Below are positions 1,831-63,567 of a stretch of 64,000 nucleotides of DNA, in pieces (position 1 is the first letter of the stretch; the number at the start of each line of letters is the position of its first letter). The notes beneath the pieces were generated by a model. It made no database searches, was not told where the DNA came from, and saw only the letters and a list, made by a program, of their open reading frames with translations. Location of the stretch: NCBI RefSeq assembly GCF_963921235.1, contig NC_086097.1, forward strand, positions 69,256,001 to 69,320,000, written 5' to 3'. The translations under genes and the position numbers were made by a program. The DNA is from Mobula hypostoma. Its lineage: Eukaryota.

Positions 1831-2042
1831 ACACAAGGAATTCTGCAGATGCTGGAAATTCAAGCAACACACATCAAAGTTGCTGGTGAACGCAGCAGAC
1901 CAGGCAGCATCTCTAGGAAGAGGTACAGTCGACGTTTTGGGCCAAGACCCTTCATCAGGACGAAGGGTCTCGGCCTGAAACGTCGACTGTACCTCTTCTT
2001 AGAGATGCTGCCTGGCCTGCTGCGTTCACCAGCAACTTTGAT
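1831..2042. mobile_element. Palindromic mini-element derived from a Penelope-like terminus, carrying a hammerhead motif
   Basis: Inverted arms 1873-1956 and 1959-2042 (about 6 mismatches, 2-nt spacer); flanking direct repeat TGATTCAAAAC(A/C)TAT at 1816-1830 and 2039-2053; sequence matches the ends of the PLE at 37916-40342. Confidence 0.85.
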
Positions 2043-3697: not shown

Positions 3698-5413
3698 CTG
3701 ACACCCTATACACCCCTTATGGTGTAGGGGGTGTCAGGGAGGGGTAGCACTTCTGGTGAGGGAACATGTCGCGTCCTTTTCAAGGCGGTTAGTCCACCTT
3801 TGGTCCCCACCTGGCACCCAGCTCTCACCTGTGGCTCCCTGTAGCTGCTTGCATGCGACAGTGGCCATACCCCGGGCAACGGCTTCGACAAGCCAGCTAA
3901 ACCAGGTGCGGGTAGCCGACGGGTCTCAAACCCTCGATGAGATAGGGAGTTGTCTATCCCAGCATGTGAAGACAGACTCCGGCTGATTGAGTGGATGAGA
4001 CCAATGGTAGATCCAACGGTAAAGAAGGCGGTCTCTGCAAGCATTGTGGAAGCTCCAGAACCTGGGCCTTAGCACTCAGATCTGCAACTGGATCTTCAGC
4101 TTCCTCACAGACAGGACCCAGGCTGTAAAAATAGGGGACAAGCTCTCCTCTACAATCACTCTGAGCACCGGTGCCCCACAAGGCTGTGTACTCAGCTGCC
4201 TGCTGTACTCACTGTACACCCACGATTGTGTAGCCAAGTTTCCATCAAACTCAATACTGCGTATAAGCTTGCTGATGACACAACAATTGTAGGCCGTACC
4301 TCAGGTAATGATCAGTTTGAGTACAGAGAGGAAATTAAGAACCTGGTGGCATGGTGCGAAGACAATAACCTATCCCTCAACGTCAGCAAGACAAAGGAAT
4401 TGGTTGTTGACTTAAAAAGGAGTAGCGGACCGCACGACCCAATTTACATCAGTGATGTGCAAGTGGAACAGGTCAAAAGCTTTAAGTTCCTCGGGGTCAA
4501 TATCACAAATGACCTGACTTGGTCCAACCAAGCAGAGTTCACTGCCAAGAAGGCCCAACAGCGCCTTTACTTCCTGAGAAAGCTGAAGAAATTTGGCCTG
4601 TCCTCTAAAACCCTCACTAATTTTTATAGATGTACAGTAGAAAGCATTCTTCTAGGGTGCATCACAACCTGGTATGGAAGTTGTCTTGTCCAAGACCGAA
4701 AGAAGCTGCAGAAGATCGTGAATACAGCCCAGCACATCACACAAACCAATCTTCCATCCGTGGACTCGCTTTGTACCCCACGCTGTCGGAGTAGTGCTGC
4801 CAGGATAATCAAGGACACGACCCACCCAGCCAACACACTTTTCGTCCCTCTTCCCTCCGGAAGAAGGCTCAGGAGCTTGAAGACTCGTATGGCCAGATTT
4901 GGGAACAGTTTCTTTCCAACTGTGATAAGACTGCTGAACGGATCCTGACCCGGATCTGGGCCGTACCCTCCAAATATCCGGACCTGCCTCTTGGTTTTTT
5001 TTTGTGCTACCTTACTTTCCATTTTTCTATTTTCTATTTATGATTTATAATTTAAAATTTAATATTTACTAATTTTTACTATTTTTAATATTTGTAATCC
5101 AGGGAGTGGGAAGGGCAGAATCAAATATCGCTGTGATGATTGTACATTCCAGTACCAATTGTTTGGCGACAATAAAGTATAAAGTGTAGAGCAGGACAAG
5201 ACACAGAAGACGATATGGTCATCCACTGCGCCTAGTCCCATCTCCAGCCGTCTCGACTCTGTCTTGCCGCTGGATCCAGATGGGAATTGGGGAGAGAGAG
5301 TGAGGCTGACGCTGCGCAACTCTCCCTCACTTAAATCCAAATCACGCGCTAGTCTCGACACCATCATAATGGCGTCGAGGTCCTAATCGACGTCGACGAT
5401 GGAGGAACACACC
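3698..5413 (+). mobile_element. Short non-autonomous element resembling an RTE-type 5' UTR, interrupted by a LINE at 4050-5185
   Basis: Direct repeat ATTCCAGGCC at 3688-3697 and 5414-5423; GC-rich non-coding body continues on both sides of the insert. The RTE family assignment is from recalled 5' UTR motifs. Confidence 0.55.
4050..5185 (+). mobile_element. Rex1/Babar-type LINE, 5'-truncated RT C-terminal part
   Basis: [38 protein letters not shown] and PLPSGRR motifs; AATAAA plus TAAAGTA tail; near-identical to 25920-27076. Confidence 0.9.
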
Positions 5414-5925: not shown

Positions 5926-8275
5926 TCAGGATCAGAATCAGGTTTATTTTCACCAGCATGTAATGTGAAATTTGTTAACTTAGCAGCAGCAGTTCAATGC
6001 AATACATAATATAGAAGAAAAAAATCAAATAGTAATAATAAGTAAATCTTATTCAGTATACTTTGTACAGTATACGTATATTGAATAGATTAAAAATTGT
6101 GCAAAAAAACAGAAATACTATATATTTTAAAAAAGTGAGATAGTGACCAAAGCTTTAATGTCCATTTAGGAATCAGTTGGCAGAGGGGAAAAAGCTGTTC
6201 CTGAATCACTGAGTGTGTGCCTTAAGGCTTCTGTACCTCCTACCTGATGGTAATAGTGAGAAAAGGACATGCCCTGGGTGCTGGAGGTCCTTAATAATGG
6301 ACACTGCCTTTCTGAGACACCGCTCCCTGAAGATGTCCTGGGTACTTTGTAGGCTAGTACCCAAGATGGAGCTGACTAGATTTACAATCCTCTGCAGCTT
6401 CTTTCAGTCCTGTGCAGTAGCACCCCCGCCCCAATACCAGACAGGGATGCAGCCTGTCATAATGTTCTCCATGGTACATCTATAGAAGTTTTTGAGTGAA
6501 TTTGTTGCAATACCAAATCATTTCAAAATCCTAATAAAGTATAACTGCTGTCTTGCCTTATTAGCTGCATCAATATGTTGGGATAAGGTTAGATCCTCAG
6601 AGATCTTGACACCTAGGAACTTAAAACTGCTCACTCTCTCCAATTCTCTGAGGATTGGTATGTATTCCTTCATCTTGCCCTTCCGGAAGTCCAAAATCAG
6701 TTCTTTTGTCGCACTGAGGTTGAGTGCCAGGTTGTTGCTGTGGTACCACTCCACTAGTTGGCATATCTCACTCCTGTACGCCCTCTCGTCACCACCTGAG
6801 ATTCTACCAACAATGGTTGTACCATCAGCAAATTTATAGATTGTATTTGAGCTATGTCTAGTCACGCAGTCATGGGTATATAGAGAGTAGAGCAGTGGGC
6901 TAAGCACACACCCCTGAGGTGCACCAGTGTTGATCATCAGCAAGGAGGAGATCTTATCACCAATCTGCACAGATTGTGGTCTTCTGGTTAGGAAGTAGAG
7001 GATCCAATTGCAGAGGGAGGTACAGAGGCCCAGGTTCTGCGACTTCTGAATCAGGATTGTGGGAATGATGGTATTAAATGCTGAGCTATAGTCAATGAAC
7101 AGCATCCTGATGTAGGTGTTTGTGTTTTCTGGTTGTCTAATGCCGTATGGAGAGCCATTGAGATTACATCTGCCATTGACCTATTGTGGCAAAAGGCATG
7201 CAATGGGTCCAGGTCCTTGCTGAGGCAGGATTTCAATCTAGTCATGAACAACCTCTCAAAGCATTTCGTTACTGTTGATGTGAGTACTACCGGGCAATAG
7301 TCATTAAAGCAACTCACGTTATTCTTCTTAGGCACTGGTATAATTGTTGCTTTGTTGAAGCAAGTGGGAACTTCCACCCGTAGCAGTGAGAGGTTGAAAA
7401 TGTCCTTGAATACTCCTGCCAGGCAGTTGGCACAGGTTTTCAGGTTGCCAGGTACTCCATCTGGACCTCCCGCCTTGTGAGGGTTCACTCTCTTTAAAGA
7501 CAGCCTAACATCGGCCTCTGAGACAGAAATCACAGGGTCATCAGGTGCAGCAGGGATCTTCACAGCTGTTGTTGTATCCTCCTGTTCAAAGAGGGCGTAG
7601 AAGGCGTTGAGTTCATCTGGTAGTGAAGCATCACTGCCATTCATGCTATTGGTTTCACTTTGTAGGACGTAATGTCTTGCAAACCCCGCCAGAGTTGTTG
7701 TACATCCAATGTCGCCTCCAACCTCGTTAGAAATTGTCTCTTCGCCCTTGAACTAGCCCTCTGCAAGTCATACCTGTTTTTCTGGTACAGGCCTGGGTCG
7801 CCAGACTTGGAATACCACAGATCTAGCCTTCAGCAGACAACGTACCCCCTGGTTCATCTACAGCTTTTGGTTTGGGAATGTACAGTAAGTCTTTGTCAGC
7901 ACACACTCATCCACACAGGTTTTAATGAAGTCGGTAACAGCTGCAGCATACTCATCCAGGTTCGAAGATGAATCCCTGAATACAGTCCAGTCCACCGACT
8001 CAAAACAGTCCTGTCGGCGCTCCTGTGCTTCCCTTGTCCATACCTTCTTGGTCCTCACTACTGGTGCTGCAGTCTTCAGTCTCTGCCTATACTCAGGGAG
8101 TAGAAGTACAGCCAGATGATCAGTCTTCCCAAAGTGAGAGCGTGGAATAGTACGGTAGGCATTCTTGATGGTGGTGTAGCAATGGTCCAGTGTGTTGTTT
8201 CCTCTGGTATTGCAAGTGATCTGTTGATGGTAGTTGCTTAGTGATTTTTTTTTCAGACTGGTCTTGACTACAGAC
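5926..8275 (-). mobile_element. Rex1/Babar-type LINE (APE C-terminus plus RT), frameshifted
   Basis: Minus ORFs 7858-8304 (TLDHCYT...KTDH), 7051-7644 (KAGGPDG...KCFERL) and 6518-7105 ([26 protein letters not shown]); (CTGATT)n tail at the left end. Confidence 0.9.
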
Positions 8276-17334: not shown

Positions 17335-20300
17335 ATCCAGTACATGGCACCCCTTCCACAAGCATCCAATCCCTCCACCACCGACGAACAGATGCAGCAG
17401 TGTGTACTATCTAAAAGATCCACTGCAACAACACACCAAAGTTCCTAAGGCAGCACCTTCCAGACCCGCGACCACTACCATCTAGAAGGACGAGGACAGC
17501 AGGTACCTGGGAACACCACCACTTGGAAATTCCCCTCCCAGTCACTCACCATCCTGACTTGGAAACATATCGCTGTTCCTTCATTGTTGCTGGGTCAAAA
17601 TCATGGAATTCCCTCCCTAACAGCACTGTGAGTGAACCTACATAGAAACATAGAAAATAGGTGCAGGAGTTGGCCATTCGGCTCTTCGAGCCTGCACCAC
17701 CATTCAGTATGATCATGGCTGATCATCCAACTCAGAGCCCTGTACCAGCCTTCCCTCCATACCCCCTGATCCCTTTAGCCAATGAACTGGCCTCAACTGT
17801 TTCCTGTGGCAGAGAATTCCACAGATTCACCACTATCTGTGTGAAGAAGTTTTTCCTAATCTTGGTCCTAAAAGGCTTCCCCTTTATCCTCCAACTATTA
17901 CCCTTCGTTCTGGACTTCCCCAACATCGGGAACAATATTCCTGCATCTAGCCTGTCCAATCCCTTTAGGATTTTATACGTTTCAATAAGATCCGCCCTCA
18001 ATCTTCTAAATTCCAACAAATATAAGCCTAGTTGATCCAGTCTTTCATCATATGAAAGTCCTGCCATCCCAGGGATCAATCTGGTGAACCTTCTTTGTAC
18101 TCCCTCTATGGCAAGGAAGTCTTTCCTCAGATTAGGGGACCAAATCTGCACACAATACTCCAGGTGTGGTCTCACCAAGGCCTTGTACAACTGCAGTAGT
18201 ACCTCCTTGCTCCTGTACTTGAATCCTTTTGCTATGAATGCCAGCATACCATTTGCCTTTTTCACCGCCTACTGTACCTGCATGCCCACTTTCAATGACT
18301 GGTGTATAATGACACCCAGGTCTCGTTGTACCTCCCCTTTTCCTAATCAACCACCATTCAAATAATAATCTGTTTTCCTGTTTTTGCCACCAAAGTGGAT
18401 AACCTCACATTTATCCACATTAAATTGCATCTGCCATGAATTTGCCCACTCACCCAACCTATCCAAGTCACCCTGCATCCTCTTAGCATCCTCCTCACAG
18501 CTAACACTGCCGCCCAGCTTCGTGTCATCCACAAACTTGGAGATGCTGCATTTAATTCCCTCATCTAAGTCATTAATATATATTGTAAACAAGTGGGGTC
18601 CCAGCACCAAGCCTTGCGGTACCCCACTAGTCACTGTCTGCCATTCTGAAAAGGTCTCGTTTATTCCCACTCTTTGCTTCCTGTCTGCCAACCAATTCTC
18701 TATCCACATCAATACTTTACCCCCAATACCGTGTGCTTTAAGTTTGCACACTAATCTCCTGTGTGGGACCTTGTCACAAGCCTTCTGAAAATCCAAATAT
18801 ACCACATCCACTGGTTCTCCCCTATCCACTCTACTAATTACATCCTCAAAAAATTCTATGAGATTCGTCAGACATGCTTTTCCTTTCACAAATCCATGCT
18901 GACTTTGTCCGATCATTTCACCGCTTTCCAAACATGCTGTTATCACATCTTTGATAACTGACTCTAGCATTTTACCCACCACCGATGTTAGGCTAACCGG
19001 TCTATAATTCCCAGTTTCTCTCTCCCTCCTTTTTTAAAAAGTGGGGTTACATTAGCCACCCTCCAATCCTCAGGAACTAGTCCAGAATCTAAAGAGTTTT
19101 GAAAAATTATCACTAATGCATCCATTATTTCTTGGGCTACTTCCTTAAGCACTCTGGGATGCAGACCATCTGGCCCAAGGGATTTATGTGCCTTTAATCC
19201 CTTCAATTTACCTAACACCACTTCCCTACTAACATCTATTTTAACATCTATTTCCCTCAGCTCCTCTATTTCACTGGACCCTCTGTCCCCTACTATTTCC
19301 AGAAGGTTATTTATGTCCTCCTTAGTGAAGGCAGAACCAAAGTAGTTATTCAATTGGTCTGCCATGTCCTTGCTCCCCATAATCAATTCACCTGTTTCTG
19401 TCTGTAGGGGACCTACATTTGTCTTAACCAATCCTTTTCTTTTCACATATCTATAAAAGCTTTTACAGTCAGTTTTTATGTTCCCTGCCAGTTTTCTCTC
19501 ATAACCTTTTTTCCCTTTCCTAATTAAGCCCTTTGTCCTCCTCTGCTGGACTCTGAATTTCTCCCAGTCCTCAGGTGAGCCACTTTTTCTGGCTAATTTG
19601 TATGCTTCTTCTTTGGAATTGATACTATCCCTAATTTCTCTTGTCAGCCATGGGTGCACTACCTTCCCTGATTTATTCTTTTGCCAAACTGGGATGAACA
19701 TTTGTTGTAGTTCATTCATGCGATCTTTAAATGCTTGCCATTGCATATCCACCATCAACCCTTTAAGTGTCATTTGCCAGTCTATCTTAGCTAATTCACG
19801 TCTCATACCTTCAAAGTTACCCTTCTTTAAGTTCAGAACCTTTGTTTCTGAATTAACTATGTCACTCTCCATCTTAATGAAGAATTCCACCATATTGTGG
19901 TCACTCTTACCCAAGGGGCCTCTCACGACAAGATTGCTAATTAACCCTTCCTCATTGCTCAATACCCAGTCTAGAATAGCCTGCTCTCTAGTTGGTTCCT
20001 CAACATGTTGTTTCAAAAAACCATCCCGCATACATTCCAAGAAATCCTCTTCCTCAGCACCCTTACCAATTTGGTTCACCCAATCTATATGTAGATTGAA
20101 GTCACCCATTATAACTGCTGTTCCTTTACTGCACGCATTTCTAATTTCCTGTTTAATACCATCCCCAACCTCACTAATACTGTTAGGTGGCCAGTACATA
20201 ACTCCCACCAGCATTTTCTGCCCCTTAGTGTTATGCAGCTCTAGCCATATCGATTCACATCCTCCCGGCTAATGTCCTTCCTTTCTATTGTGTTAATCTC

Positions 20301-21332
20301 CTCTCTAACCAGCAATGCTACCCTACCTCCTTTTCTTTCATGTCTATCCCTCCTGAATATTGAATATCCCTGAATGTCGAACTCCCATCCTTGGTCACCC
20401 TGGAGCCATGTCTCTGTGATCCCAACTATATCATATTCATTAATAACAATCTGCACTTTTAATTCATCCACCTTGTTACGAATGCTCCTTGCATTGACAC
20501 AAAAAGCCTTCAGACTCACTTTTACAACACTCTTAGCCCTTATACAATTATGTTGAAAAGTGGCCCTTTTTGATTTTTGCCCTGGATTTGCCAGCCTGCC
20601 ACTTTTACTTTTCACCTTACTACTTTTTGCTTCTACCCTCATTTTACACCCCTCTGTCTCTCTGCACTTGTTCCCATCCCCCTGTTGTGAACTAACCTCC
20701 TCTCTCCTAGTCTCTTTAATTTGATTCCCACCCCCCAACCATTCTAGTTTAAAGTCACCTCAGTAGCCCTCGCAAATCTCCCCGCCAGGATATTGGTCCC
20801 CCTAGGTTTCAAGTGTAACCCGTCCTTTTTGTACAGGTCACACCTGCGCCAAAAGAGATCCCAATGATCCAAAAACTTGGATCCCTGCCCCTGCTCCAAT
20901 CCCTCAGCCACGCATTTATCCTCCACCTCATTGCATTCTTACTCTCACTGTCACATGGCACAGGCAGGAATCCCAAGATTACTACCTTTGCGGTCCTTTT
21001 TCTCAACTCCCTTCCTAACTCCCTATATTCTCCTTTCAGGACCTCTTCCCTTTTCCTACTTATGTCATTGGTACCTATATGTATCACAACCTCTGGCTCC
21101 TCACCCTCCCACTTCAGGATATCTTGGACGCAATCAGGAATATCCCAGACCCTGGCACCAGGGAGGCAAACTACCATCCGGGTCTCTGGACTGCGTCCAC
21201 AGAATTGCCTCAGGGACTGCAGTGGTTCAAGAAGGCAGCTCATCACCATCTTCTCAAGGGCAACTAGGGATGGGCAATAAATGCCAGCTTAGCTGGTGAT
21301 GCCCACATCCCATAAATGAATGAATAAAAAAA
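17335..21332 (+). mobile_element. L2-like LINE 3' fragment (17335-17640 plus 21207-21332) split by a CR1 insertion
   Basis: The two parts are colinear with the uninterrupted copy at about 14860-15222; ends AATAAATGCCAGC...ATGAATGAATAAAAAAA. Confidence 0.6.
17641..21208 (-). mobile_element. CR1 LINE: ORF1 esterase (SGNH-like) C-terminus plus ORF2 APE and RT, with frameshifts
   Basis: ORF 20809-21249 (LPGARV...HIGTND) and DGLHL; ORF2 motifs NARSIRNK, ITETWL, MGDFN, GKSDH, YLDFQKA, GVPQG, FVDDTK and RPHLEYC; (TATGTTTC)n tail. Confidence 0.93.
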
Positions 21333-24300: not shown

Positions 24301-27300
24301 AGGGAGATGCAGAACTGCTGTGTATTCTGTTTCACCGGGACCTGGCTGTCCCCTGCCACCCCCCGACTGTGCCATCCGACCGGAGGGATTTTTGATCTAT
24401 TGGATGGACCGCACAGCATCTTCGGGCAAGACGAGGGGAGGTGGTGTCTGCCTACTGATCAACATTGCGTGGTGCTCGGACACAGTGGCACTGACAAGCT
24501 CCTGCAGCCCGGACCTGGTACACCTGTCGGTGAAGTGTCGTCCCTACTATCCGCCACGGGAATTCATCTCGGTCATAGTGACAGCGGTCTACATTCCCCC
24601 CCAGGTGGACGTGCAGTGTGCTCTGAACATACTGTATACCAACATCAGTGAACTTGAGACCAGGTATCTGGAGGCTTTGCTCATTACAGCCAGAGACTTT
24701 AACCAGGCCAACCTCAGAAAGGCGCTGCCAAAGTTATACCAACATGTCTCCTGCCCCACTAGTGGCCCGAATATACTTGACCACTGCTACATGGCAGTCA
24801 AGGATGCCTACCGTTCCGTCCCACGACCTCACTTCGGAAAATCGGACCATCAGGCCGTACTCCTCCTCCTGGCTTACAAACTGAAACGGGTTGTCACGGT
24901 GTCAAAAGTAGTGTCGCGTTGGACGGAGGAAACAGATGAGGTCCTCCGTGACTGCTTTGAATCGGTGGACTGGTTAGTATTTAAGGACTCGGCAGCTAAC
25001 CTCAATGAGTATGTCTCAGCTGTCATGGACTTTATTTGGAAATGCACGGAGGACTGTGTGTCTCCGGGTATTCCCTAACTGGAAACCTTGAATGAATTAT
25101 GAGGTCAAGTCCCTTTTAAAGGCTAGAGCTGCGACCTTTAGGTCTGGGGATACCAGTTGCTACACGGAATCCAGGTGTGAACTCTGGAAAGCCATTAAGG
25201 GTGCCAAGAGGCAATATCGAGCCAAGTTGAAAGCCCAGGCTAACCAAAGGGATGCCAGTAGACTATGGCAGGGTCTAAATGAAATCACTGGGCGCAAAGA
25301 AAAGGCTGGGAATATCAATAACTGTGGCGCTTCTCTTCCTGACGAACTTAACGTATTCTACGCAAGATTCAAACAGAAGAGGAGCGTCCCGCTCCCTCTG
25401 GATGAACCAGGCCTGGTTGCATCGAGATTCATCATCACCGAGGAGGACATTAGAAGGGCCTTCCTGAAGATAAATCCAAGGAAGGCGACGGGCCCAGATG
25501 GCGTCCCGGGATGGGTTCTCTGGGCCTCTGCAAGCGAGCTAGCTGGAGTGTTTGCTGACATCTTCAACTGCTCCTTGCTTCAGTCTAAGATCCCCTCGTG
25601 TTTTAAGAAGGCAATGATAATCCCAGTGCTGAAGAAGAGCAAGGTGGCATGCCTGAATGACTATCGACCTGTGGCTCTGACATCAATTGCTATGAAGTGC
25701 TTCGAGAGATTGGTTATGGCACACATCAACCACAGCCTACCAGTCAACCTTGATGCTTTGCAATTCACCTACCAGAGCAACAGGTCAACGGCAGATGCCA
25801 TCTCTCTGGCCCGACGTTCCTCCTTAGAACACCTGGAGAATAAAGATGCATACGTAAGGCTCCTTTTCATTGACTACAGCTCTGCCTTTAATACCATCAT
25901 TCCAAATAAACTGATTCCTCAGCTCCGGAACCCTGGGCCTTAGCACTCAGATCTGCAGCTGGATCTTCAACTTCCTCACAGACAGGACCCAGGCTGTAAA
26001 AATAGGGGACAAGCTCTCCTCTACAATCACTCTGAGCACCAGTGCCCCACAAGGCTGTGTACTCAGCCCCCTGCTGTACTCACCGTACACCCATGATTGC
26101 GTAGCCAAATTTCCATCAAACTCAAAATTTAAGTTTGCTGATGACACAGCAATTGTAGGCCGTATCTCGGGTAATGATGAGTTTGAGTACAGAGAGGAAA
26201 TTAAGAACCTGGTGGCATGGTGCAAAGACAATAACCTATCCCTCAACGTGAGCAAAACAAAGGAATTGGTTGTTGACTTCAGAAGGAGTAGCGGACCGCA
26301 TGACCCAATTTACATCGGTGGTGTGCAAGTGGAACAGGTCAAGAGCTTTAAGTTCCTCGGGGTCAATATCACAAATGACCTGACTTGGTCCAACCAAGCA
26401 GAGTTCACTGCCAAGAAGGCCCACCAGCACCTTTACTTCCTGAGAAAACTAAAGAAATTTGGCCTGTCCCCTAAAACCCTCACTAATTTTTATAGATGCA
26501 CCGTAGAAAGCATTCTTCTAGGGTGCATCACAACCTGGTATGGAAGTTGTCTTGTCCAAGACCGAAAGAAGCTGCAGAAGATCGTGAACACGGCGCAGCA
26601 CATCACACAATCCAATCTTTCGTCCGTGGACTCACTTTATACCGCACTTTGTCAGAGCAGTGCTGCCAGGATAATCAAGTACACGACCCACCCAGCCAAC
26701 ACACTTTTCGTCCCTCTTCCCTCTGGGAGAAGGCTCAGGAGCTTGAAGACTCATACTGCCAGATTTGGGAACAGCTCCTTTCCAACTGTGATAAGGCTGC
26801 TGAACGGATCCTGACCCGGATCTAGGCTGTACCCTTCAAATATCCAGAGCTGCCTCTCGGTTTTTTTGCATTACCTTACTTCTCATCTTTCTATTTTCTA
26901 TTTATGATTTATAATTTAATTTTTTAATATTTACTAATTTTAACTATTTATAATATTTTTAATATTTGATATTTATAATCCAGGGAGTGTGAAGCGCAGA
27001 ATCAAATATCGCTGGGATGATTGTACGTTCTAGTACTAATTGTTTGGTGACAATAAAGTATAAAGTATAAAAGTATAGAATACAAGAACAAGAATGTGAT
27101 ACTGGAGGCTTTATAAGACACTGGTGAGGCCCTACCTTGAGTATTGTGAACAGTTTTGGGGCCCTCATTTTAGAAAAGATGTGCTGGCATTGGAGAGGGT
27201 CCAGAGGAGGTTCACAAGGATGATTCCAGGAATGAAAGGGTTATCATATGAGGAACATTTGATGGCTCTGGGTCTGTACTTGCAGGAATTCAGAAGGATG

Positions 27301-33769: not shown

Positions 33770-33886
33770 TTACTCTGGCTCCTCATCTTTTATTCCAGTC
33801 TTGCCTCGGCCCGAAATGCCAACTGTACTCTTTTCCACAGATGCTGCCTGGCCTGCTGGGTTCCTCCAGCATTTTGTGTGTGTAAC
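33770..33886 (+). mobile_element. Penelope-like terminal fragment, hammerhead core partly deleted
   Basis: CCAGTC...CTCGGCCCGAAATGCCAACTGTAC...GATGCTGCCTGGCCTGCTG...CCAGCATTTTGTGTG matches 40238-40340. Confidence 0.7.
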
Positions 33887-33951: not shown

Positions 33952-36733
33952 CATAGAAACATAGAAACATAGAAAATAGGTGCAGGAGTAGGCCATTCGG
34001 CCCTTCAAGCCTGCACCACTATTCAGTATGATCATGGCTGATCATCCAACTCAGAACCCTGTACCAGCCTTCCCCCGTATACCCCCTGATCCCTTTAGCC
34101 ACAAGGGCCATATCTAACTCCCTCTTAAATATAGCCAATGAACTGGCCTCAACTGTTTCCTGTGGCAGAGAATTCCACAGATTCACCACTCTCTGTGTGA
34201 AGAAGTTTTTTCCTAATCTCAGTCCTAAAAGGCTTCCCCTTTATCCTCAAACTGTGACCCCTCGTTCTGCACTTCCCCAACATCGGGAACAATCTTCCTG
34301 CATCTAGCCTGTCCAATCCCTTTAGGATTTTATACGTCTCAATAAGATCCCCCCTCAATCTTCTAAATTCCAGAGAGTATCCAGTCTTTCATCATATGAA
34401 AGTCCTGCCATCCCAGGAATCAATCTGGTGAACCTTCTTTGTACCCCCTCTATGGCAAGGATGTCTTTCCTCAGATTAGGGGACCAAAACTGCACACAAT
34501 ACTCCAGGTGTGGTCTCACCAAGGCCTTGTACAACTGCAGTAGTACCTCCCTGCTCCTGTACTTGAATCCTCTTGCTATGAATGCCAGCATACCATTCGC
34601 CTTTTTCACCGCCTGCTGTACCTGCATGCCCACTTTCAGTGACTGGTGTATAATGACACCCAGGTCTCGTTGCACTTCCCCTTTTCCTAATCAGCCACCA
34701 CTCAGATAAAAATCTGTTTTCCTGTTTTTGCCACCAAAGTGGATAACCTCACATTTATCCACATTAAATTGCATCTGCCATGAATTTGCCCACTCACCTA
34801 ACCTATCCAAGTCACCCTGCATCCTCTTAGCATCCTCCTCACAGTTAACACTGCCGCCCAGCTTCGTGTCATCCGCAAACTTGGAGATGCTGCATTTAAT
34901 TCCCTCATCTAAGTCATTAATATGTATTGTAAACAAGTGGGGTCCCAGCACTGAGCCTTGCAGTATCCCACTAGTCACTGCCTGCCATTCTGAAAAGGTC
35001 CCGTTTATTCCCACTCTTTGCTTCCTGTCTGCCACCAATTCTCTATCCACATCAATACCATACCCCCAATACCATGTGCTTTAAGTTTGCACACTAATCT
35101 CCTGTGTGGGACCTTGTCAAAAGCCTTTTGAAAATCCATATATATCACATCCACCTGTTCTCCCCTATCCACTCTACTAATTACATCCTCAAAAGATTCT
35201 ATGAGATTCGTCAGACATGATTTTCCTTTCACAAATCCATGCTGACTTTGTCCGATCATTTCACTGCTTTCCAAATGTGCTGTTATCACATCCTTGATAA
35301 CTGACTCCAGCAGTTTCCCCACCACCGATGTTAGGCTAACCGGTCTATAGTTCCCCGGTTTCTCTCTCCCTCCTTTGTTAAAAAGTGGGGTTACATTAGC
35401 CACTCTCCAATCCTCAGGAACTAGTCCAGAATCTAAAGAGTTTTGAAAAATTGTCACTAATGCATCCACTATTTCTTGGGCTACTTCTTTAAGCACTCTG
35501 GGATGCAGACCATCTGGCCCTGGGGATTTATCTGCCTTTAATCCCTTCAATTTACCTAACACCACTTCCCTACTAACATGTATTTCCCTCAGTTTCTCCA
35601 CCTCACTGGACCCTCTGTCCCCTACTACTTCAGAAGATTATTTATGTCCTCCTTAGTGAAAACAGAACCAAAGTAATTATTCAATTGGTCTGCCATGTCC
35701 TTTCTCCCCATAATCAATTCATCTGTTTCTGTCTGTAGGGGACCTACATTTGTCTTAACCAATCTTTTTCTTTTCACATATCTATACAAGCTTTTACAGT
35801 CAGTTTTTATGTTCCCTGCCAGTTTTCTCTCATAATCTTTTTTCCCCTTCCTGATTAAGCCCTTTGTCCTCCTCTGCTGGACTCTGAATTTCTCCCAGTC
35901 CTCAGGTGAGCCACTTTTTCTGGCTAATTTGTATGCTTCTTCTTTGGAATTGATACTATCCCTAATTTCCCTCGTCAGCCACAGGTGCCTACCTTCCTTG
36001 ATTTATTCTTTTGCCAAACTGGGATGAACAATTGTTGTAGTTCATCCATGCGATCATTAAATGCTTGCCATTGCATATCCACTGTCAACCCTTTAAGTGT
36101 CATTTGCCAGTCTACCTTAACTAATTCACGTCTCATACCTTCCAAGTTACCCTTCTTTAAGTTCAGAACCTTTGTTTCTGAATTAACTATGTCACTCTCC
36201 ATCTTAATGAAGAATTCTGCCATATTGTGGTCACTCTTACCCAAGGGGCCTCTCACGACAAGATTGCTAATTAACCCTTCCTCATTGCTCAATGCCCAGT
36301 CTAGAATAGCCTGCTCTCTAGTTGGTTCCTCGATATGTTGGTTCAAAAAACCATCCCGCATACATTCCAAGCAATCCTCTTCCTCAGCACGCTTACCAAT
36401 TTGGTAAACCCAATCTATATGTAGATTGAAGTCACCCATTATAACTGCCATTCCTTTATTGCACACATTTCTAATTTCCTGTTTAATACCATCCCCAACC
36501 TCGCTACTACTGTTAGGTGGCCTGTACACAACTCCCACCAGCGTTTTCTGCCCCTTAGTGTTATGCAGCTCTACCCATATCCATTCCACATCCTCCCGGC
36601 TAATGTCCTTCCTTTCTATTGCGTTAATCTCCTCTCTAACCAGCAATGCTACCCCACCTCCTTTTCTTTCATGTCCATCCCTCCTGAACATTGAATATCC
36701 CTGAATGTCGAACTCCCATCCTTGGTCATCCTG
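33952..36733 (-). mobile_element. CR1 LINE ORF2 (APE and RT), 5'-truncated, same family as 17641-21208
   Basis: ORFs 35975-36781, 35005-35601, 34691-35050 (FADD) and 34355-34675; (TATGTTTC)n tail. Confidence 0.93.
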
Positions 36734-36734
36734 G

Positions 36735-37675: not shown

Positions 37676-37915
37676 GATGCCAGCAGGCTCAATAAACTGA
37701 TTAGTTATAGGAATCAAATTGGACACACTGGAGGCTGTGGTAGAACAAAGGACCCACCGGTATATCTAGCAATTCTGGACAATGTTTCTCACCCTTTGCA
37801 TGCCACCTTGGCTGAACAGAGGAGCACTTTTAATAATAGACTAAAAGAACTGAGCTACTCCAACGCTCACTCTGTGAGGTAATTCTTAGCTTCGGCCATC
37901 AGGCTCTGTAATGAA

Positions 37916-40342
37916 GAGAAAATCTGCAGATGCTGGAAATCTGAGCAACACACATAAAATACTGAAGGAACACAGCAGGCCAAGCAGCATCTATGAAAAG
38001 GAGTACAGTCAACGTTTCAGGCTGAGACCCTTCAGCAGGACTGGAACAAAAAAGATGGGGAGTAGAGTTAAAAGGTGGGGGAGGGGAGGGAGAAACACAG
38101 GCAACAGGTGAAACCGGGAGGGGGTGTCATGGTCCGGATCGGGGTCCTTTAAATTTACCTTGTTTATGTTACGATCCGGACTGTTGATTCCCTGTTTTCC
38201 CATGTCCCTCGACTTTGGTGATTTGAGGCAATTAACACTCGGCTGAACCGGTAGTTTATAGTCTCCGGCTTTCAGCCGTTCGGTGCGGGAGCATCTGCAA
38301 AGTCACGACGTGCCAATGTCATCTGGCCGGAGCAAGCCTTGTCTCCGCCCGAAGCGAGTGCCAGTAATTCGCCCTTCCTCACCGGAGCAACCCTGTCCAG
38401 TTACCTCGCCGAAGCGAGCCTGCAAAATTTCCTCTTCAAGGTTGGTCCGTCAGTTAACCCACCGGAGAGAATCATGAGCCGCTGTCTACTGTTCCCGGGC
38501 CGAGTCGAGAGCTCGGCACTACCCAGAGGTTCCAAGCACCACGTCCTGGCTCCGGCGGCATCCGAGTACCATGTCAAGTCCTGGCCCTGGCGGCTTCCAG
38601 TTCTGAGCCTAGTCCTGGTCCTGGCGGTCTGTGTTTCCTGTCCTACCCCCTTGTCTGAATCCCTTCTCTGCCCCTCTCAACTCTAGCCCTCGTCTGCAGC
38701 CCCCACCTGCACTTCGGTCTAGTTCCATCGCCGGAGCTAGGTAGGTACTGTCTGGTGTTCATTCATGTTGGTCTTGTCTTGTCTTGTCCTCGCCTCCGTG
38801 GGGTAAGTCTGGCCGTCTTGCCATTGCCCCGCAGGGAGTCATGTCTCGTCTCGTCCTTGCCTCCGTGGGGTAAGTCAGGCCGTCTTGCCGTTGCCCCGCG
38901 GAATGTCATGAGTCCCAGCCCTATGTCTTGAAACCAAGGAGGGGTCCTGGCTCTCTGTTCTGTGTATGTGTCCAAGTTTCCATGTACCTGCTCTTCCGAG
39001 ACCGAGGCTCTGTTTTCCATGTTCCTCCTCTCCTTAGCCCATGTCATGTCCATGCCTGGTTCTGGGGTCCAAGCCCGAGGCAAGACCCAGGTACTGGGTC
39101 CTTGCCCAGTCTTGGGCTCGGAGTCCATACCCTAGCCTCTTCATGTCTCCTCTAGTTCTGGGAGCCGATTCCAAGTCCAAGCCCAGACCCTTGGTCCTGG
39201 CCTAGTCGTAGTCCTAAGTCCTTATCCTGTTCGCTATTCCTGCTTCTGTCTTGCTCTCCTGATATCGTACAATAAACTAAACCTAAGTAACCTCACATGA
39301 TGTGTCTTGCATTTGGGTCCACCCTTGCTCCCAATGTCCTGCCATTGTGACAGGGTGAGGGGTGAAGTGAAGAGCTGAGAAGTTGCTTGGTGAAAGAGAT
39401 ACACGGCTGGAGAAGGGGGAATCTAATAGGAGAGGACAGAAGCCATGGAAAAAGAAAAGGGGGGAGGAGCAGCAGAGGGAGGTGATGGGCAGGCAAGAAG
39501 ATGAGGTGAGAGAGGGATAAGGGGATAGGGAATGGTGAAGGAGAGGAGAGGATGAGCTATTACCAGAAGTTTGAAAAATTGATGTTCATTCCATCAGGTG
39601 GAAGGCTACCCAGACGGAATATAAAGTGTTGTTCCTCCAGCCTGAGTTGGCCTCATCACAACAGATCCCATTCCGATATGTAAAAAGTGGGTTCTCCCAG
39701 TGGCCATCCATTTTAATTACAATTCCTATTCCGATATGTGAAACAACGTAGATTGGAAGACCACTTCACCAAGCACCTACACTCCATCCGCCACAAAAAG
39801 CGGGATTTCCTAGTGGCCACCCACTTTAATTAAACTTCCTATTCCCATTCCAATATGTCTATCCATGGCATTCTCCACTGTCGTTATGAGCCCATACACA
39901 GGCTGGAGGAACAACACCTTATGTTCCATGTAGGTAGCCTCCAACCTGATGGCATGAACATCGATCTCTCAAACTTCCGGTAATACTCCACCACTCATCC
40001 CCTTTTCCCCTCCCTCACCTTATCTCCTTGCCTGCCCATCACCACCCTCCCCACTTCTTTCTTCCATGTCCTTCTGTTCTCTCCTATCAGACTCCCCCTT
40101 CTCCAGTCCTGTATCTCTTTCACCAATCAACTTCCCAGCTCTCTACTTCACCCCTTCCCTTCCTGGTTTCACCAATCACCTTGTGTTTCTCCCTCCTCTC
40201 CCCTTACCTTGTAACTTTACTCGCCATCTTTTTTTTCTCCAGTCCTGCTGAAGGGTCTTGGTCCAAAACATCGACTGTACTCTTTTCTATAGCTGCTGCT
40301 GTCTGGCTTGCTGAGTTCCTCCAGCACCTTGCGTGTGATGCT
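37916..40342. mobile_element. Penelope-like element: two inverted 3' ends, with GIY-YIG endonuclease C-terminus and hammerhead-like motif in each arm
   Basis: 39740-39983 (+) translates to ...HLHSIRHKKRDFLVATHFN...RLEEQHLMFHVGSLQPDGMNIDLSNFR*; an inverted copy spans 37916-38124 plus 39358-39665; degenerate 15-bp TSD at 37901-37915 and 40343-40357. Confidence 0.85.
38125..39352 (+). mobile_element. Solo LTR (TGTCA...TGACA) inserted in the Penelope arm
   Basis: Inverted termini; 5-bp TSD GGGGG/GGGTG; AATAAA at 39271; PLE sequence resumes after it; relative at 59975-61140. Confidence 0.8.
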
Positions 40343-40968: not shown

Positions 40969-42614
40969 AGAATCAGAATCAGGTTCATTATCACCAGCAT
41001 GTGACGTGAAATTTGTTAACTTAGCAGCAGCAGTTCAATGCAATACATAATCTAGCAGAGAGATAAACAAATAAATAAATAAATAAATAATAAAATTTAA
41101 TTAATAATAATAATAAACAAGCAAATCAATTACGTCTATTGAATAGATTTTTTTAATGTGCAAAAACAGAAATACTGTATATTAAAAAAAAGTGAGGTAG
41201 TGCCCAAAGATTCAATGTCCATTTAGGAATCAGTTGGTAAAGGAGAAGAAGTTGTTCCTGAATCATTGAGTGTGTGCCTTCAGGCTTCTGTACCTCCTAC
41301 CTGATGGTAACAGTGAGAAAAGGTCACGCCCTGGGTGCAAGAAGTCCTTAATAATGGACGCTGCCTTTCTGAGACACTGCTCCCTAAAGATGTCCTGGGT
41401 ACTTTGTAGGCTAGTACCCAAGATGGAGCTGACTAGATTTACAACCTTCTGCAGCTTCTTTCGGTCCTGTGCAGTAGTCCCTCCATACCAGACAGTAATG
41501 CAGCCTGTCAGAATGCTCTCCACGGTACAACTATGCAAGTTTTTGAGTGTATTTGTTGACATGCCAAATCTCTTCTAATAAGGTATAGCCGCTGTCTTGC
41601 CTTCTTTATGACTACATCGACATGTTGGGATCAGGTTCCTGACACCCAGGAACTTGAAGCCGCTCACTCTCTCCACTTCTGATCCCTCTATGAGGATTGG
41701 TATGTGTTCCTTCATTTTACCCTTCCTGAAGTCCACAATCAGCTCTTTCATCTTACTGACGTCGAGTGCCAGGTTGTTGCTGCGGCACCACTCCACTAGT
41801 TGGCATATCTCACTCCTGTATGCCCTCTTGTCACCACCGGAGATTCAACCAACAATGGTTGTATCGTCAGCAAATTTATAAACGGTATTTTAGCTACGCT
41901 TAGCCACATAGTCATGTGTATATAGAGAATAGAGCAGTGGGCTAAGTACACACCCCTGGGGTGCACCAGTGCTGATCATCAGCGAGGAGGTGATGTTATC
42001 ACCAGTCTGCACAGATTGTGGTCTTCTGGTTACGGTCGAGAATCCAATTGCAGAGGGAGGTAAAGAGGTCCAGGTTCTGCAACTTCTCAATCAGGATTGT
42101 GGCAATGATGGTATTAAATGCCGAGTTATAGTTGATGAACAGCATCCTGACATAGGTGTTGGTATTGTCCAGGTGGTCTAAGGCCATGTGGAGTTCCACT
42201 GAGATTGTGTCAGCTGTTGACCTATTGTGGCGATAGGCAAATTGCAGCGGGTCCAGGTCCTTGCTGAGGCAGGAGTTCAGTCTAGTCATGACCAACCTCT
42301 CAAAGCATTTCATCACTGTCGATGCGAGTGCTACCGGGTGATAGTCATTAAGGCAGCTCACATTATTCTTCTTAGGCACTGGTATGATTGTTGCCTTTTT
42401 GAAGCAAGTGGGAACTTCTGCCCATAGCAGTGAGAGGTTGAAAATGTCCTTGAATACTCCCGCTAGTTGGTTGGCACAGGTTTTCAGAGCTTTACCAGGT
42501 ACTCCATCAGGACCTTCTGCCTTGCAAGGATTCACCCTCTTTAAAGCCAACCTAACATTGGCCTCTGAGACAGAGATCAGAGGGTCATCAGGTGCAGCAG
42601 GGATCTACACAGCT
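40969..42614 (-). mobile_element. Rex1/Babar-type LINE RT part, same family as 5926-8275
   Basis: ORFs 41999-42550, 41890-42090, 41575-41796 and 41263-41562; (CTGATT)n tail. Confidence 0.9.
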
Positions 42615-44750: not shown

Positions 44751-44880
44751 TACAGCAGGTCAGGCAGCATCTATGAAGACCGAAAGTGAGTCATTGTTTC
44801 AGATTAATGACCCTTCATCAGAAGTGGAGAAATGACAAAAGAATTGTGTGTTTGCAGAAGTAGAAGGGGCAGAGGGAACA
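44750..44880 (-). mobile_element. Old Penelope-like terminal fragment with eroded hammerhead core
   Basis: Minus strand reads CTGATGAAGGGTCATTAATCTGAAACAATGACTC...ATAGATGCTGCCTGACCTGCTG. Confidence 0.6.
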
Positions 44881-53440: not shown

Positions 53441-53548
53441 CACAAAATGCTGAACTCAGCAAGTCAGGCAGCATCTATGGAGGGGAATAAACAGTTGACA
53501 TTTCCGGCCGAGACCCTTCATCAGGACTGGAAAGGAAGGGGACAGAGG
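53441..53548 (-). mobile_element. Penelope-like terminal fragment
   Basis: Matches 37950-38050: CAGGCAGCATCTATGG...CAGTTGACATTTCCGGCCGAGACCCTTCATCAGGACTGG. Confidence 0.8.
53492..53529 (-). ncRNA. Minimal type I hammerhead ribozyme motif (PLE-associated), slightly decayed
   Basis: Minus strand reads CAGUC-CUGAUGA-AGGG-UCUCGG-CCG-GAAA-UGUC-AACUG: core boxes intact, stem I 4 of 5 bp. Confidence 0.6.
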
Positions 53549-53905: not shown

Positions 53906-53983
53906 ATGAGGAAATCTGCATACCTCTTCCTAGAGATGCTGACTGGCCTGCTGCGTTCATCAGCAACTTTTATGTGTCTTGCT
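53906..53983. mobile_element. Centre-deleted copy of the palindromic Penelope mini-element
   Basis: Left terminus GAGGAAATCTGCA is joined directly to right-arm TACCTCTTCCTAGAGATGCTG; 16-bp TSD at 53890-53905 and 53984-53999 (2 mismatches). Confidence 0.7.
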
Positions 53984-54111
53984 TCAATCAATTATTAATT
54001 CTCTTTCACAAAAACATCAAAAATAAATTTTGGTTTTATTTATGGCTTGCATAAACCTTGCTAAAAATTGCAGACCATTATACATACACAGTTGGAAAAT
54101 ACGTGGGCAGA

Positions 54112-59499: not shown

Positions 59500-61545
59500 C
59501 TCAAATGGCTTCTACCTTCATCTACTATTTGTAAAACAGTTAATTCTGCTTTACTTGTACATAAACACTCTTCTTCGATCTGTGCTGGTCATTCACTGAT
59601 TCAATTTAAAATTGTACATCGTTACCATTTGACGAAGGAAAGATTGTCTAAAATATTCCCTAACATTGATAGTTATTGTGATAGATATAAAACTAAGACA
59701 GCTACACTGACACACATGTTCTGGTCTTGTTCTATACTGGAACAGTTCTGGCAGTCAGTTTTTTTGACAATTTCTAAAGCACTTAAAATTAATTTACAAC
59801 CTAACAAATTAACTGTGCTTTTTGGAATAATTCCTCAAAATATCTGTGGTATCTCTTTGTCTGACCAACATGTTATTGCATTTGTTACATTGATAGCTAG
59901 GAGGGCCATTTTGTTGAAGTGGCAGGATACATCGGCTCCTACTTTGTCACAATGGTTCTCTCAAGTGATGCCAATGTCATAAGGCAGTGGCTGGGAACGG
60001 ACCCAAGCACAAGACACAGACACTGAAGTACTAGGGACAGGACAAGGACATGGACACGAAAACCGGGAACCCGGAACAGGACTGGACACGACAGCTAGGA
60101 GCCCGGGCTTGGACTCCGAGCCAGAGACTGGACAAGGACCCAGTACCTGGGTCTTGGCTCTGGCTCAGACCCCAGAACTAGGCAAGGACAAGGCTTGGCT
60201 GACAGGCAGGATGAGGCTGGAGTCTTCAGGCTTGAGGCTAGGCAGGAGGCTGGAGTCTTCAGGCTAGAGGCTAGAGATGAGGCAAGGCTTGGCAGGAGGC
60301 TTGAGACTTGGGGTGAGGCTTGGAAGGAGGCTGGAGACTTGAGACTTGAGGCAAGGCTTGGCAGGAGGCTTGAGACTTGAGGCGAGGCTTGGCAGGAGGC
60401 TGGAGGCAGGAGACTTGAGGCGAGGCAAGGCTGGAGACTGGAGGCAGGAGGAAGGAGGGCAGGACGTGGTACTCCTGGGCAGGGGGCGGCTCTCCACCCA
60501 ATGGAGGCAAGGGACAGGAAGGGACAGAACCAACCACAGGTAATGGCAAGTCGGCCTGGCTTACCCGACGGAGACAAGGGACAGGAAGGGATAGAACCAA
60601 CAGCTAGTAACGGCAAGATGGCCTGGCTTACCCGACGGAGGCAAGGGACAGGAAAGGAGCTAGGTACGGGGTGGCTCCCGGACAAGACAGCAAGACAAGG
60701 CAAGGCTTCAGGCGATGCAAGGCAAGACAGAACTTCAGGCGAGGTGAGAGCTACTGGCAAGACAAGGCAGGGCTTCAGGAATTGCAAGGCAAAATGAGAA
60801 CTTCAGGCGAGGCGAGAGTTACCAACAAAACAAAGCAAGGCTACAGACAATGCAAGGCAAAACGAGAACGTCAGGCGAGGCGAGAGTTACCGGCAAAACA
60901 AGGCAAAGCTTCAGGCAAGGAAACAGAAGGCAGAGGAAGGCATACAAGGAGTAAGGACAAGAACAATCCAGCAGCCACACACTGGTCTGAAGGTATTTAT
61001 GCAGCCAGCCCCAACGAGCATCAGCTGCCTCAATTAGAGCTCAACAAGAACAGAAACAGGGTAGACAGGAAAACCTGGAGCAAGGGTCGATGGACTGGAC
61101 CGTGAACCGGAATACGGACTTCACGGACCGGACCATGACAGCCAAGTTCTAGGTTGGAGAAAATTAGAAGTCAAGCCCTTCAATCTATGTTTGATTTTGA
61201 GAAAAGATGGGGTTCATTTGCTCGTTATTATTATTTGAGTTAATTGATAGATTTCCTCCACGATCTAATTGTAAATTTTTGGTACATTTTTTTTCTTGCT
61301 GGCAGTTTGACGTTTATCTTTTGAAGCTTTTTGTATGACGCATGGCTCTGGGGTTGAACACCTAATGGGTTTTTTCCCTCACTTTTTTCTTGCTTAGTAG
61401 GGGTTTTTTCCTCTTTTTCTTAAATCACCAAAATTTTTTCAATCTTTATAATAATATTATTTTTCTTGAGACATTGTACAAGTTGCTTACTTTGATGTTC
61501 CCCGTAAATTGTTGGAAATAATAATAAAGAGATTTGAAAAGAAAC
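59500..61545 (+). mobile_element. L1-clade LINE 3' end (cysteine-rich C-terminus), interrupted by a solo LTR
   Basis: ORF 59440-59982: LIQFKIVHR...YCDR...LTHMFWSC...FW; coding remnant resumes after 61145 (LEKIR...FEKRWGSF); AATAAA and A-rich end. Confidence 0.85.
59975..61140 (-). mobile_element. Solo LTR (TGTCA...TGACA) with internal tandem arrays
   Basis: Perfect 5-bp TSD GCCAA at 59970-59974 and 61141-61145; minus strand starts TGTCATGGTCCGG, as at 38125. Confidence 0.88.
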
Positions 61546-62268: not shown

Positions 62269-62466
62269 GTGGGCATTCACAGTAGAATAAAGAAATACAA
62301 TGGAATCAATTAAAAACTGCAAAGAAAGTCTGACAAACAATGTCCAAAAAAAAGACAAACTGTGCAAGTACAAAAATCCGAATAATAATAATAATAAACA
62401 AGTAAATAAATAATACTGAGAACATCAGTTGAAGAGCCTTTGAAAGTGAGTCAATAGTTTGTGGAA

Positions 62467-62684
62467 ACAACAGGAATTCTGCAGATGCTGGAAATTCAAG
62501 CAACATACATCAAAGTTGCTGGTGAACGCAGCAGGCCAGGCAGCATCTATAGGAAGAGGCGCAGTCGACGTTTCAGGCCGAGACCCTTCGTCAGACGAAG
62601 GGTCTCGGCCTGAAACGTCGACTGCGCCTCTTCCTATAGATGCTGCCTGGCCTGCTGCGTTCACCAGCAACTTTGATGTATGTT
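62467..62684. mobile_element. Palindromic Penelope-derived mini-element with hammerhead motif (young copy)
   Basis: Perfect 91-bp arms 62502-62592 and 62594-62684 with a 1-nt spacer; perfect 16-bp TSD TCAATAGTTTGTGGAA at 62451-62466 and 62685-62700. Confidence 0.92.
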
Positions 62685-63567
62685 TCAATAGTTTGTGGAA
62701 TCAGTTCAGTGTTGAGATACGTGAAGTTAAACATGTTGGCTTATGAGCCAGACACTTGAAGGATAATAACTGTTCCTGAACCTAGTGGTGTCGGACTTGA
62801 GGCTTCAGTACCTCTTTCCTGATGGGAGCAGCATGAAGAGAGCATGGCCTGGACAGTGGGGCCCTTGATGATGGATGCTGCTTTCTTGTGGCAGAGCTCC
62901 TTGTAGATGTACTCAATGGTAGAGAAGACTTTTCCTGTGATTGACAGGGAAGTACTCACCAGTTTTCGTAGCCTTTTTCTGTTCTTAGGCATCGGTGTTT
63001 CTGTACCAAGCCATGACACAACCAGTCAAGATACTCTCTACTGTTCACCTATAGAAGTTTGTCAAAGTTTGAGATGACATGCCAACTCTGCCCAAACTTC
63101 TAAGAATGTTGAGACCCTGCCATGCCTTCTTTACAATGGCACTTATGAGCTGGTTCCAGGACAGATCCTCAGAAATGATAACGCCAAGGCATTTAAAGTC
63201 ACTGACCTGCTCCACCTCCAATTCTCTAATGAGGACTGGCTCATGGACCCTCAGCTTCTTCCTCCTGTAGTCAATAATCAGCTCTTTGGTTTTGCTGACA
63301 TTGATTGGCTAGTGGTGATAACAAAGAGGGTCAATGAGGGTAGAGCCTTGATTAGTGTACATGGATTTTGGAAAGTTCAAAGAAAGTAAAAGCTGGTGGG
63401 ATCTAAGAGAAAGTGGAAAGATGTATTAACAATTTCCCTAGTGACAGAAAGTTTAGTGTAACAATCAGTCACTGACGGACTGCGTGCAGGCAGAGATGCT
63501 GTGCAGAGAGAAGTCAGGATTAGCCCCTTGTTTTTGAATGATGTAGATTTAAATGCACAGGCCACAA

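What the first reader, a model, noticed from the sequence alone, without database searches (positions are those of the whole stretch)
62451..62700. Young 218-bp mobile palindrome hinged on a hammerhead-ribozyme core
Seen: a perfect 91+1+91 bp palindrome plus a 35-bp unique end, flanked by a perfect 16-bp TSD inside an old LINE. The minus strand reads CUGACGA-AGG-GUCUCGG-CCU-GAAA-CGUC-GACUG. Known: PLEs carry minimal type I hammerheads with a palindromic ACGU helix III in their terminal repeats, and inverted termini occur in PLEs. Inference: these are extreme mini-PLE insertions whose cDNA snaps back at the ribozyme. Both arms share private variants (CATACATC, CTATAGG, GGCGCAG) that differ from the copy at 1831, so the second arm was probably copied from the first at insertion or was homogenised later.
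Basis: partly seen in the sequence, partly recalled or inferred. Interest (0 to 1): 0.8.

Follow-up and report, generated by a model that had tools for sequence, protein, structure and literature searches.

The report
Twin-primed Penelope stub, mirror-image insertion
This 218-base mirror-image insertion is a stub of a very abundant Penelope-type jumping gene, likely built at the landing site from two separately started DNA copies of the element's end, and its thousands of sister copies offer a test of how this poorly understood class of element inserts.

Summary
Observation confirmed: perfect 91+1+91 palindrome, 35-bp tail, 16-bp TSD, inside an older repeat. The long arm is 127/128 identical to the pLTR and tail of a 3.5-kb Penelope-like element with a 1,042-codon RT/GIY-YIG frame; one 27-mer of its end occurs 84,799 times. 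Inverted arms run from tens of bases to 2 kb. In 88 inverted pairs, 87 have exactly one tailed arm and none lacks a tail; the tail-less arm reaches further in 43 of 87; arms differ at known alleles at 60 of 587 sites, 8 expected from mutation. This favours two primings at the element's two start sites over cDNA snap-back, although snap-back is not excluded for this copy. Arm ends pile up about 20-fold at the ribozyme's 5' edge, not at its cleavage site; this copy lacks helix I and cannot form the hammerhead. The anatomy is published; I did not find the twin-priming rule in the papers searched. The scan already reported such stubs, in this and other genomes.

The parts
62451..62466 (+). Left copy of the 16-bp target-site duplication; its last two bases also match the element (2-nt overlap at the outer start site)
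62467..62501 (-). 35-nt 'tail': the stretch between the inner and outer reverse-transcription start sites, present on one arm only
   Evidence: tail = interval between two RT start sites in PMC11167929
62467..62594 (-). Tailed arm: element positions -5 to +122 (0 = first G of GAAGGG), 127/128 identical to the pLTR/tail of the full-length parent in L216
62562..62594 (-). Incomplete minimal type I hammerhead: core CUGACGA, helix II, GAAA, ACGU palindrome, predicted cut between 62567 and 62566, 3' strand of helix I; the 5' strand of helix I is missing
62590..62596 (.). Hinge GTCAGAC: tailed arm ends at -5/-4, tail-less arm starts at -3/-2, 1-nt overlap
62594..62684 (+). Tail-less arm: element positions -3 to +87, ending at the inner start site; hammerhead core broken (CAGACGA)
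62685..62700 (+). Right copy of the 16-bp target-site duplication
62301..63329 (-). Older host repeat, with a decayed LINE-like C-terminal frame at about 62952-63329; other copies are continuous across the insertion site
1836..2042 (.). Older sister stub of the same family (tailed arm to -8, tail-less arm from -3, older alleles, arms 93% complementary)

Best explanation
The palindrome is one insertion of the end of a Penelope-like retrotransposon present in two head-to-head copies, likely made when the element's enzyme nicked both target strands and started a separate DNA copy from each nick, one at the outer and one at the inner start site of its RNA, the two short copies then likely being joined end to end. 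Shown: parent element, two preferred 3' ends 35-37 nt apart, one-tail-per-pair rule, 13-15-bp TSD, variable hinges with short overlaps or inserts, a stop zone at -12..-5. Inferred: that both ends are primed; that a minority of pairs used two different RNAs; that host end-joining makes the hinge; and the cause of the stop zone (an RNA 5' end near an initiator-like or splice-acceptor-like sequence, or failure of the enzyme to leave the ribozyme-tail domain; undecided). The stub is predicted to be a dead end: no complete hammerhead, no ORF.
For: Parent: tandem of ~3,515-bp units, 99.7% identical, 1,042-codon open frame with RT, CxxxxCxxC linker and GIY-YIG; window arm 127/128 identical. 88 inverted pairs: 78 inner+outer, 9 outer+shorter, 1 outer+outer, 0 without a tail; singles end at the inner site in 62 and the outer in 39 of 101, so the inner site is a primed end in its own right and snap-back from such cDNAs should have left tail-less pairs. 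Tail-less arm reaches further 5' in 43 of 87, tailed arm in 29, tie 15. Arms differ at 60 of 587 informative non-CpG site comparisons, 8.1 expected from background mutation, 221 if arms were drawn at random; 12 of 73 pairs differ at two or more sites, some along the whole arm. TSD found in 80 of 88 pairs, 72 of them 13-15 bp, with similar 0-3-nt overlaps at both junctions. In vitro a Poseidon PLE cuts and extends both target strands, starts at two internal sites that bound the tail, is predicted to be a dimer and does not need ribozyme cleavage (PMC11167929).
Against: For this copy and its hinge class the arms are alike: 23 of 24 GTCAGAC copies are concordant at three marker sites, all 24 have the hinge oriented from the tailed arm, and the one discordant copy has no TSD; that fits snap-back. 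Young short pairs are discordant in only 1 of 22, against 9 of 37 older short pairs, so part of the discordance could be later gene conversion or recurrent mutation. Asymmetric central deletion of a fold-back palindrome (known for long palindromes; recalled) could make the tail-less arm look longer, and arm lengths are correlated (rho 0.49). Samples come from the first 61 Mb of one contig and were picked by exact patterns. No biochemical or RNA-end data.
Confidence: 0.7

Rival explanations
1. cDNA snap-back: one cDNA primed at the tail end stops near the ribozyme, folds on a microhomology and copies itself; the second arm is resolved at the inner site and later asymmetric deletions blur the hinge.
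For: Arm concordance per marker site 34/42 to 60/65 against 41-60% expected; this copy's hinge class is polarised and concordant in 23 of 24; templated inserts at several hinges; PMC3846280 reads junction palindromes as self-priming.
Against: No tail-less pair among 88 although most singles are inner-ended; tail-less arm longer by 10 nt or more in 37 of 87; discordance as high when the tailed arm is longer (27/279 sites) as when it is shorter (29/250); loop size relates only weakly to arm divergence (rho 0.27), age strongly (0.79).
Confidence: 0.2
2. A self-contained non-autonomous mini-element (retrozyme- or MITE-like) whose whole 218-nt palindrome is copied from master copies.
For: 24 of the 30 best matches, this copy included, share the identical hinge.
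Against: Those 24 carry six symmetric allele sets and ragged right ends; the hinge is 0 of the first 50 joints listed genome-wide, where the two commonest hinges are 9 and 7 of 50 (counted by eye); arm lengths form a continuum up to 2 kb; the RNA would be a plain hairpin.
Confidence: 0.06
3. Ribozyme cleavage defines the hinge: self-cleaved RNA ends and reverse transcription runs off there.
For: The stop zone lies inside the ribozyme motif.
Against: Predicted cut is after +22; 3 of 167 arms at risk end at +20..+25 against 37 at -12..-5; this copy reads through the cut site on both arms; cleavage is dispensable in vitro (PMC11167929).
Confidence: 0.03
4. Assembly artefact (fold-back reads).
For: Perfect palindromes can arise in library preparation (own knowledge); no read or contig bridging this junction was found.
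Against: A 16-bp TSD exactly restores a continuous host repeat; arms in other pairs have diverged with age; 2,754 such joints with varied hinges.
Confidence: 0.01

Closest known systems
Endonuclease-positive Penelope-like element insertions with an inverted, 5'-truncated copy and a one-sided 30-40-bp tail (PMC8557442 and PMC3846280, passages read)
   Same: Head-to-head inverted pLTR, tail on one arm, TSD, partial tandems, hammerhead in the pLTR.
   Different: Here the insert is only the two pLTR stubs (218 bp); TSDs are 13-15 bp (8-10 bp in the rotifer examples); numbers allow statistics, and they fit two primings better than the self-priming on an antisense template proposed in PMC3846280.
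PAc, Poseidon element of Anolis carolinensis, in vitro (PMC11167929, first two of four text parts read)
   Same: Two internal RT start sites bounding the tail; both target strands cut and extended; ribozyme just upstream, cleavage not required.
   Different: Different clade signature (this parent has the CX2-5CxxC linker that Penelope/Poseidon lacks); the parts read do not couple the two sites to the two strands in one event.
Minimal type I hammerheads of metazoan PLEs (PMC4209133, first two of four text parts read)
   Same: No helix III stem, palindromic ACGU, short helix I; that paper also notes pairs of motifs 100-700 bp apart on opposite strands in Schistosoma.
   Different: The young subfamily has U where the conserved G10.1-C11.1 pair needs C (249 T, 35 C); the window copy has lost the 5' strand of helix I.
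L1 twin priming (recalled, not read here)
   Same: Both target strands prime cDNA; inverted junction with microhomology; TSD kept.
   Different: L1's second primer anneals at variable internal places and inverts without duplicating; here both starts are fixed, 35 nt apart, so the same sequence is copied twice.
Animal non-LTR retrozymes (bioRxiv 10.64898/2026.07.22.740005, first of five parts and passages read)
   Same: Short, non-coding, hammerhead-bearing, derived from PLE pLTRs.
   Different: Retrozymes are head-to-tail tandem units with complete ribozymes; this is head-to-head with none complete.

Membership tests
EN+ Penelope-like element (parent, L216) | Single ORF with RT followed by C-terminal GIY-YIG endonuclease | tested here: met
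   1,042-codon frame; RVT_1 E 6e-5 and GIY-YIG E 0.001, both under Pfam's cut-offs; DKG and YIDD motifs visible
EN+ Penelope-like element (parent, L216) | Two cysteines of the CCHH finger inside the GIY-YIG core | tested here: met
   GVIYCVRCSRCGLLYIG (feature from PMC8557442)
EN+ Penelope-like element (parent, L216) | Partial tandem forming pLTRs, with a minimal hammerhead | tested here: met
   three pLTRs, ~3,515-bp spacing; all helix I and II pairs can form in the parent
EN+ Penelope-like element insertion (window copy) | Inverted 5'-truncated copy, one-sided tail, TSD | tested here: met
Neptune/Nematis clades | CX2-5CxxC linker finger between RT and EN | tested here: met
   CKRNKCYTC (feature)
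Neptune/Nematis clades | Placement in an RT tree with reference elements | not tested
   no reference set was fetched
Functional type I hammerhead (window copy) | Helix I closing the core | tested here: not met
   3 of 5 pairs impossible on either strand; whole insert folds as a hairpin
Functional type I hammerhead (parent) | Self-cleavage as monomer or dimer | not testable with these tools
   needs an in vitro assay; no Rfam hammerhead hit in the window
Non-LTR retrozyme | At least two head-to-tail units each with a complete hammerhead | tested here: not met
   head-to-head arms, no complete motif (definition)
MITE or other fixed-structure non-autonomous element | Constant ends and centre across copies | tested here: not met
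   hinges and arm lengths vary widely

The most novel reading that the evidence does not exclude
Penelope-like elements insert by obligate, asymmetric twin priming: one enzyme dimer makes nicks about 14 bp apart and assigns the outer RNA start site to one strand and the inner site to the other, often on two different RNAs that may be held together by the hammerhead's ACGU palindrome, as retroviral genomes are by their dimerisation loops. Inverted ends, one-sided tails, single-arm copies and these stubs would all be outcomes of that one reaction, and the ribozyme domain would act as a packaging and early-stop element rather than a cutter.
Probability: 0.3. Interest if true: 0.7.

Novelty: new member of a known kind. 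Interest (0 to 1): 0.42.

Why it matters
How Penelope-like elements make their inverted ends and one-sided tails is stated to be unresolved (PMC8557442); the published proposal is self-priming on an antisense template (PMC3846280). This genome holds tens of thousands of young events, and they give three rules that the existing in vitro system could test directly: one tail per pair, either arm longer, mixed templates in some pairs. The single copy is an inert stub. The family also seeds an estimated 20,000 short palindromes in one genome (extrapolated from 26 of 85 sampled insertions and 84,799 arms), a possible source of hairpin RNA and instability (not tested).

Tried and rejected
Rfam scan: no hammerhead family. 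Cleavage site as hinge: rejected. Spliced template as cause of the stop: the sequence before -11 resembles a 3' splice site, but none of the 27 single-arm copies ending at -15..+2 has a shared upstream exon or a convincing match to upstream element sequence next to its 5' end; the 967 copies could not be inspected. A single transcript start at -13 or -11 for all templates: the genome-wide loss is steepest between -5 and -10 (5.5% per base) and 2.2-3.1% per base from -10 to -16, with no sharp edge; and 0 of 6 long copies that enter the upstream pLTR stop there, so this reading is neither shown nor excluded. Homogenisation of tight palindromes: weak support at best. RNA evidence: no RNA holder on record was listed; contigs only, which cannot show RNA ends. 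Orthologous empty or filled site: no contig bridged the junction in four runs. Strong target consensus: none beyond 68% A+T. Predicted folds of the parent's end are no better than shuffles. Not run: covariance model, RT tree, structure prediction. Rows dropped: alignments under 88% identity; 2 of the 100 arms; the two window pairs are left out of all pair counts; pairs with under 40 overlapping bases are left out of the allele counts (73 of 88 kept).

Full report
Observation. The palindrome (62502-62592 / 62594-62684), the 35-nt unique end and the 16-bp TSD are exactly as reported. Removing the insert and one TSD copy restores an older repeat that is continuous in other copies (20 of 66 hits cross the site) and that runs into a decayed LINE-like frame (weak Pfam hit). 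A second, older stub lies at 1836-2042 and several older single-arm relatives lie elsewhere in the window.

What it belongs to. A search of the window's genome (3.48 Gb) gave 40 scored places, 94-100% identical over the near-full length. Exact patterns count 47,274 and 84,799 arms. Following long copies led to L216, a tandem of ~3,515-bp units, 99.7% identical, with a 1,042-codon open frame carrying RT, a CxxxxCxxC linker and a GIY-YIG endonuclease: an endonuclease-positive Penelope-like element with the Neptune/Nematis linker (feature from PMC8557442; no tree made). The window's long arm is 127/128 identical to its pLTR and tail. I number from the first G of GAAGGG. The three 'private' variants are this parent's alleles.

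The ribozyme. In the parent the motif is complete: helix I (-10..-6 with +23..+27), CUGACGA, helix II, GAAA and the ACGU palindrome, with the cut predicted after +22, matching the minimal hammerheads of PMC4209133. The window's hinge falls at -5/-3 and removes the 5' strand of helix I; neither strand can close the motif, and the insert folds as a single hairpin.

Population of insertions. I sampled arms by 3'-end patterns that do not depend on the hinge (first 100 places) and mapped them on the parent. In the least biased set, 37 of 85 insertions are inverted pairs and 26 of 85 are short palindromes. Arms of pairs range from a few tens of bases to over 2 kb. 3' ends cluster at an inner (about +77..+94) and an outer (about +111..+137) site. 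Of 88 pairs, 87 have exactly one outer-ended arm, one has two and none has none; singles are inner-ended in 62 and outer-ended in 39 of 101. TSDs occur in 80 of 88 pairs (72 of 13-15 bp) but in only 33 of 95 singles. The tail-less arm reaches further upstream in 43 of 87 pairs, the tailed arm in 29. Arms are far more alike than random pairs (non-CpG divergence 1.9% against 3.5%) yet differ at known alleles at 60 of 587 sites against 8 expected (27 of 275 against 4 when the allele-selected set is left out). Against my reading: this discordance is low in young short pairs (1 of 22) and absent in the TSD-flanked copies of this window's hinge class.

Where arms stop. The stop rate is 0.020-0.021 per base in (-15, 0], mostly 0.003-0.010 in the bins within 45 bases on either side (0.001 in two bins of the young set) and about 0.001 beyond -100, in both samples. 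Genome-wide, nested patterns fall from 52,988 (-5) to 40,036 (-10), 38,806 (-11), 37,839 (-12) and 34,611 (-16), part of which is mutation and subfamily difference. Only 3 of 167 arms end at the predicted cut. Single-arm copies stop in the same zone. Its cause is open: an initiator-like and a splice-acceptor-like sequence lie at -15..-11 (D. virilis Penelope has an internal promoter and an intron ending at helix I; PMC2377424 passages; PMC4209133), but there is no sharp edge, no shared upstream exon, and 0 of 6 long copies stop there at their upstream pLTR.

Mechanism. The simplest account is twin priming: staggered nicks about 14 bp apart, each 3' end starting a cDNA, one at the outer and one at the inner site, with early termination common and the two cDNA ends joined through 1-5-nt overlaps or short inserts (37 of 88 hinges overlap). 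This joins facts shown separately in vitro for a Poseidon element: both strands cut and extended, two start sites bounding the tail, predicted dimer, cleavage dispensable (PMC11167929). Snap-back may still shape some hinges, this one included. Confidence 0.7.

What is known. The anatomy is in print (PMC8557442, PMC3846280; passages), with self-priming on an antisense template as the proposed cause. Searches for Penelope with 'twin priming' (three listings, none on this subject by title and abstract start), for shark palindromes and related term sets did not show the one-tail rule or two-template arms; the library lacks most subscription papers, and I read no supplements (those of PMC11167929 may bear on coupling of cut and start sites). 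The scan's own notes hold 52 findings with these words in at least 16 genomes, several with twin-priming or transcript-start readings; I reached the twin-priming reading before looking (notes), and these notes are not independent evidence.

Verdict. Real, young-looking, a miniature of a known kind of insertion; the copy is ordinary, the family statistics are a useful handle on an open mechanism. Interest 0.42.

Noticed in passing
L216 (G000:C2:157227500-157237499): Near-intact tandem of the parent element, three pLTRs, units 99.7% identical, one unit with a 1,042-codon open frame: a candidate source for biochemical work.
   Followed up: partly
L216 pLTR, position +14; window 62575: The young subfamily has U where the conserved G10.1-C11.1 pair of helix II needs C (249 T against 35 C among arms), so an abundant young family may carry a weakened ribozyme.
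   Followed up: partly
L001-L030: The GTCAGAC hinge occurs 24 times among the 30 best matches, always oriented from the tailed arm; the mirror form was not seen. Unexplained.
   Followed up: partly
single-arm copies in C1 samples: 62 of 95 single-arm copies have no TSD of 10 bp or more near their ends, against 8 of 88 pairs; some may hide captured DNA or target deletions. L387 has a partner arm of only about 16 nt.
   Followed up: partly
L014: A palindrome with discordant arms and no TSD, next to what looks like the end of a related element; possibly a recombinant.
   Followed up: no
window 33795-33878, 37914-38033, 40250-40330, 44753-44779, 53448-53524, 53923-53988: Older single-arm relatives of the same pLTR, 75-92% identical.
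   Followed up: partly
window 60200-60930: Degenerate tandem repeats of about 30-70 nt, with inverted matches between 39016-39160 and 60077-60221 and nested inverted repeats at 39358-40155.
   Followed up: no
window 17850-20403 and 34207-36734; 4061-4563 and 25932-26429; 6105-7443 and 41162-42487: Pairs of 88-97% identical dispersed repeats, probably LINE copies.
   Followed up: no
G000:C1:1876737-1877160 (L275): A copy that runs past the outer site to +279 and is followed by a second partial pLTR in the same orientation.
   Followed up: no
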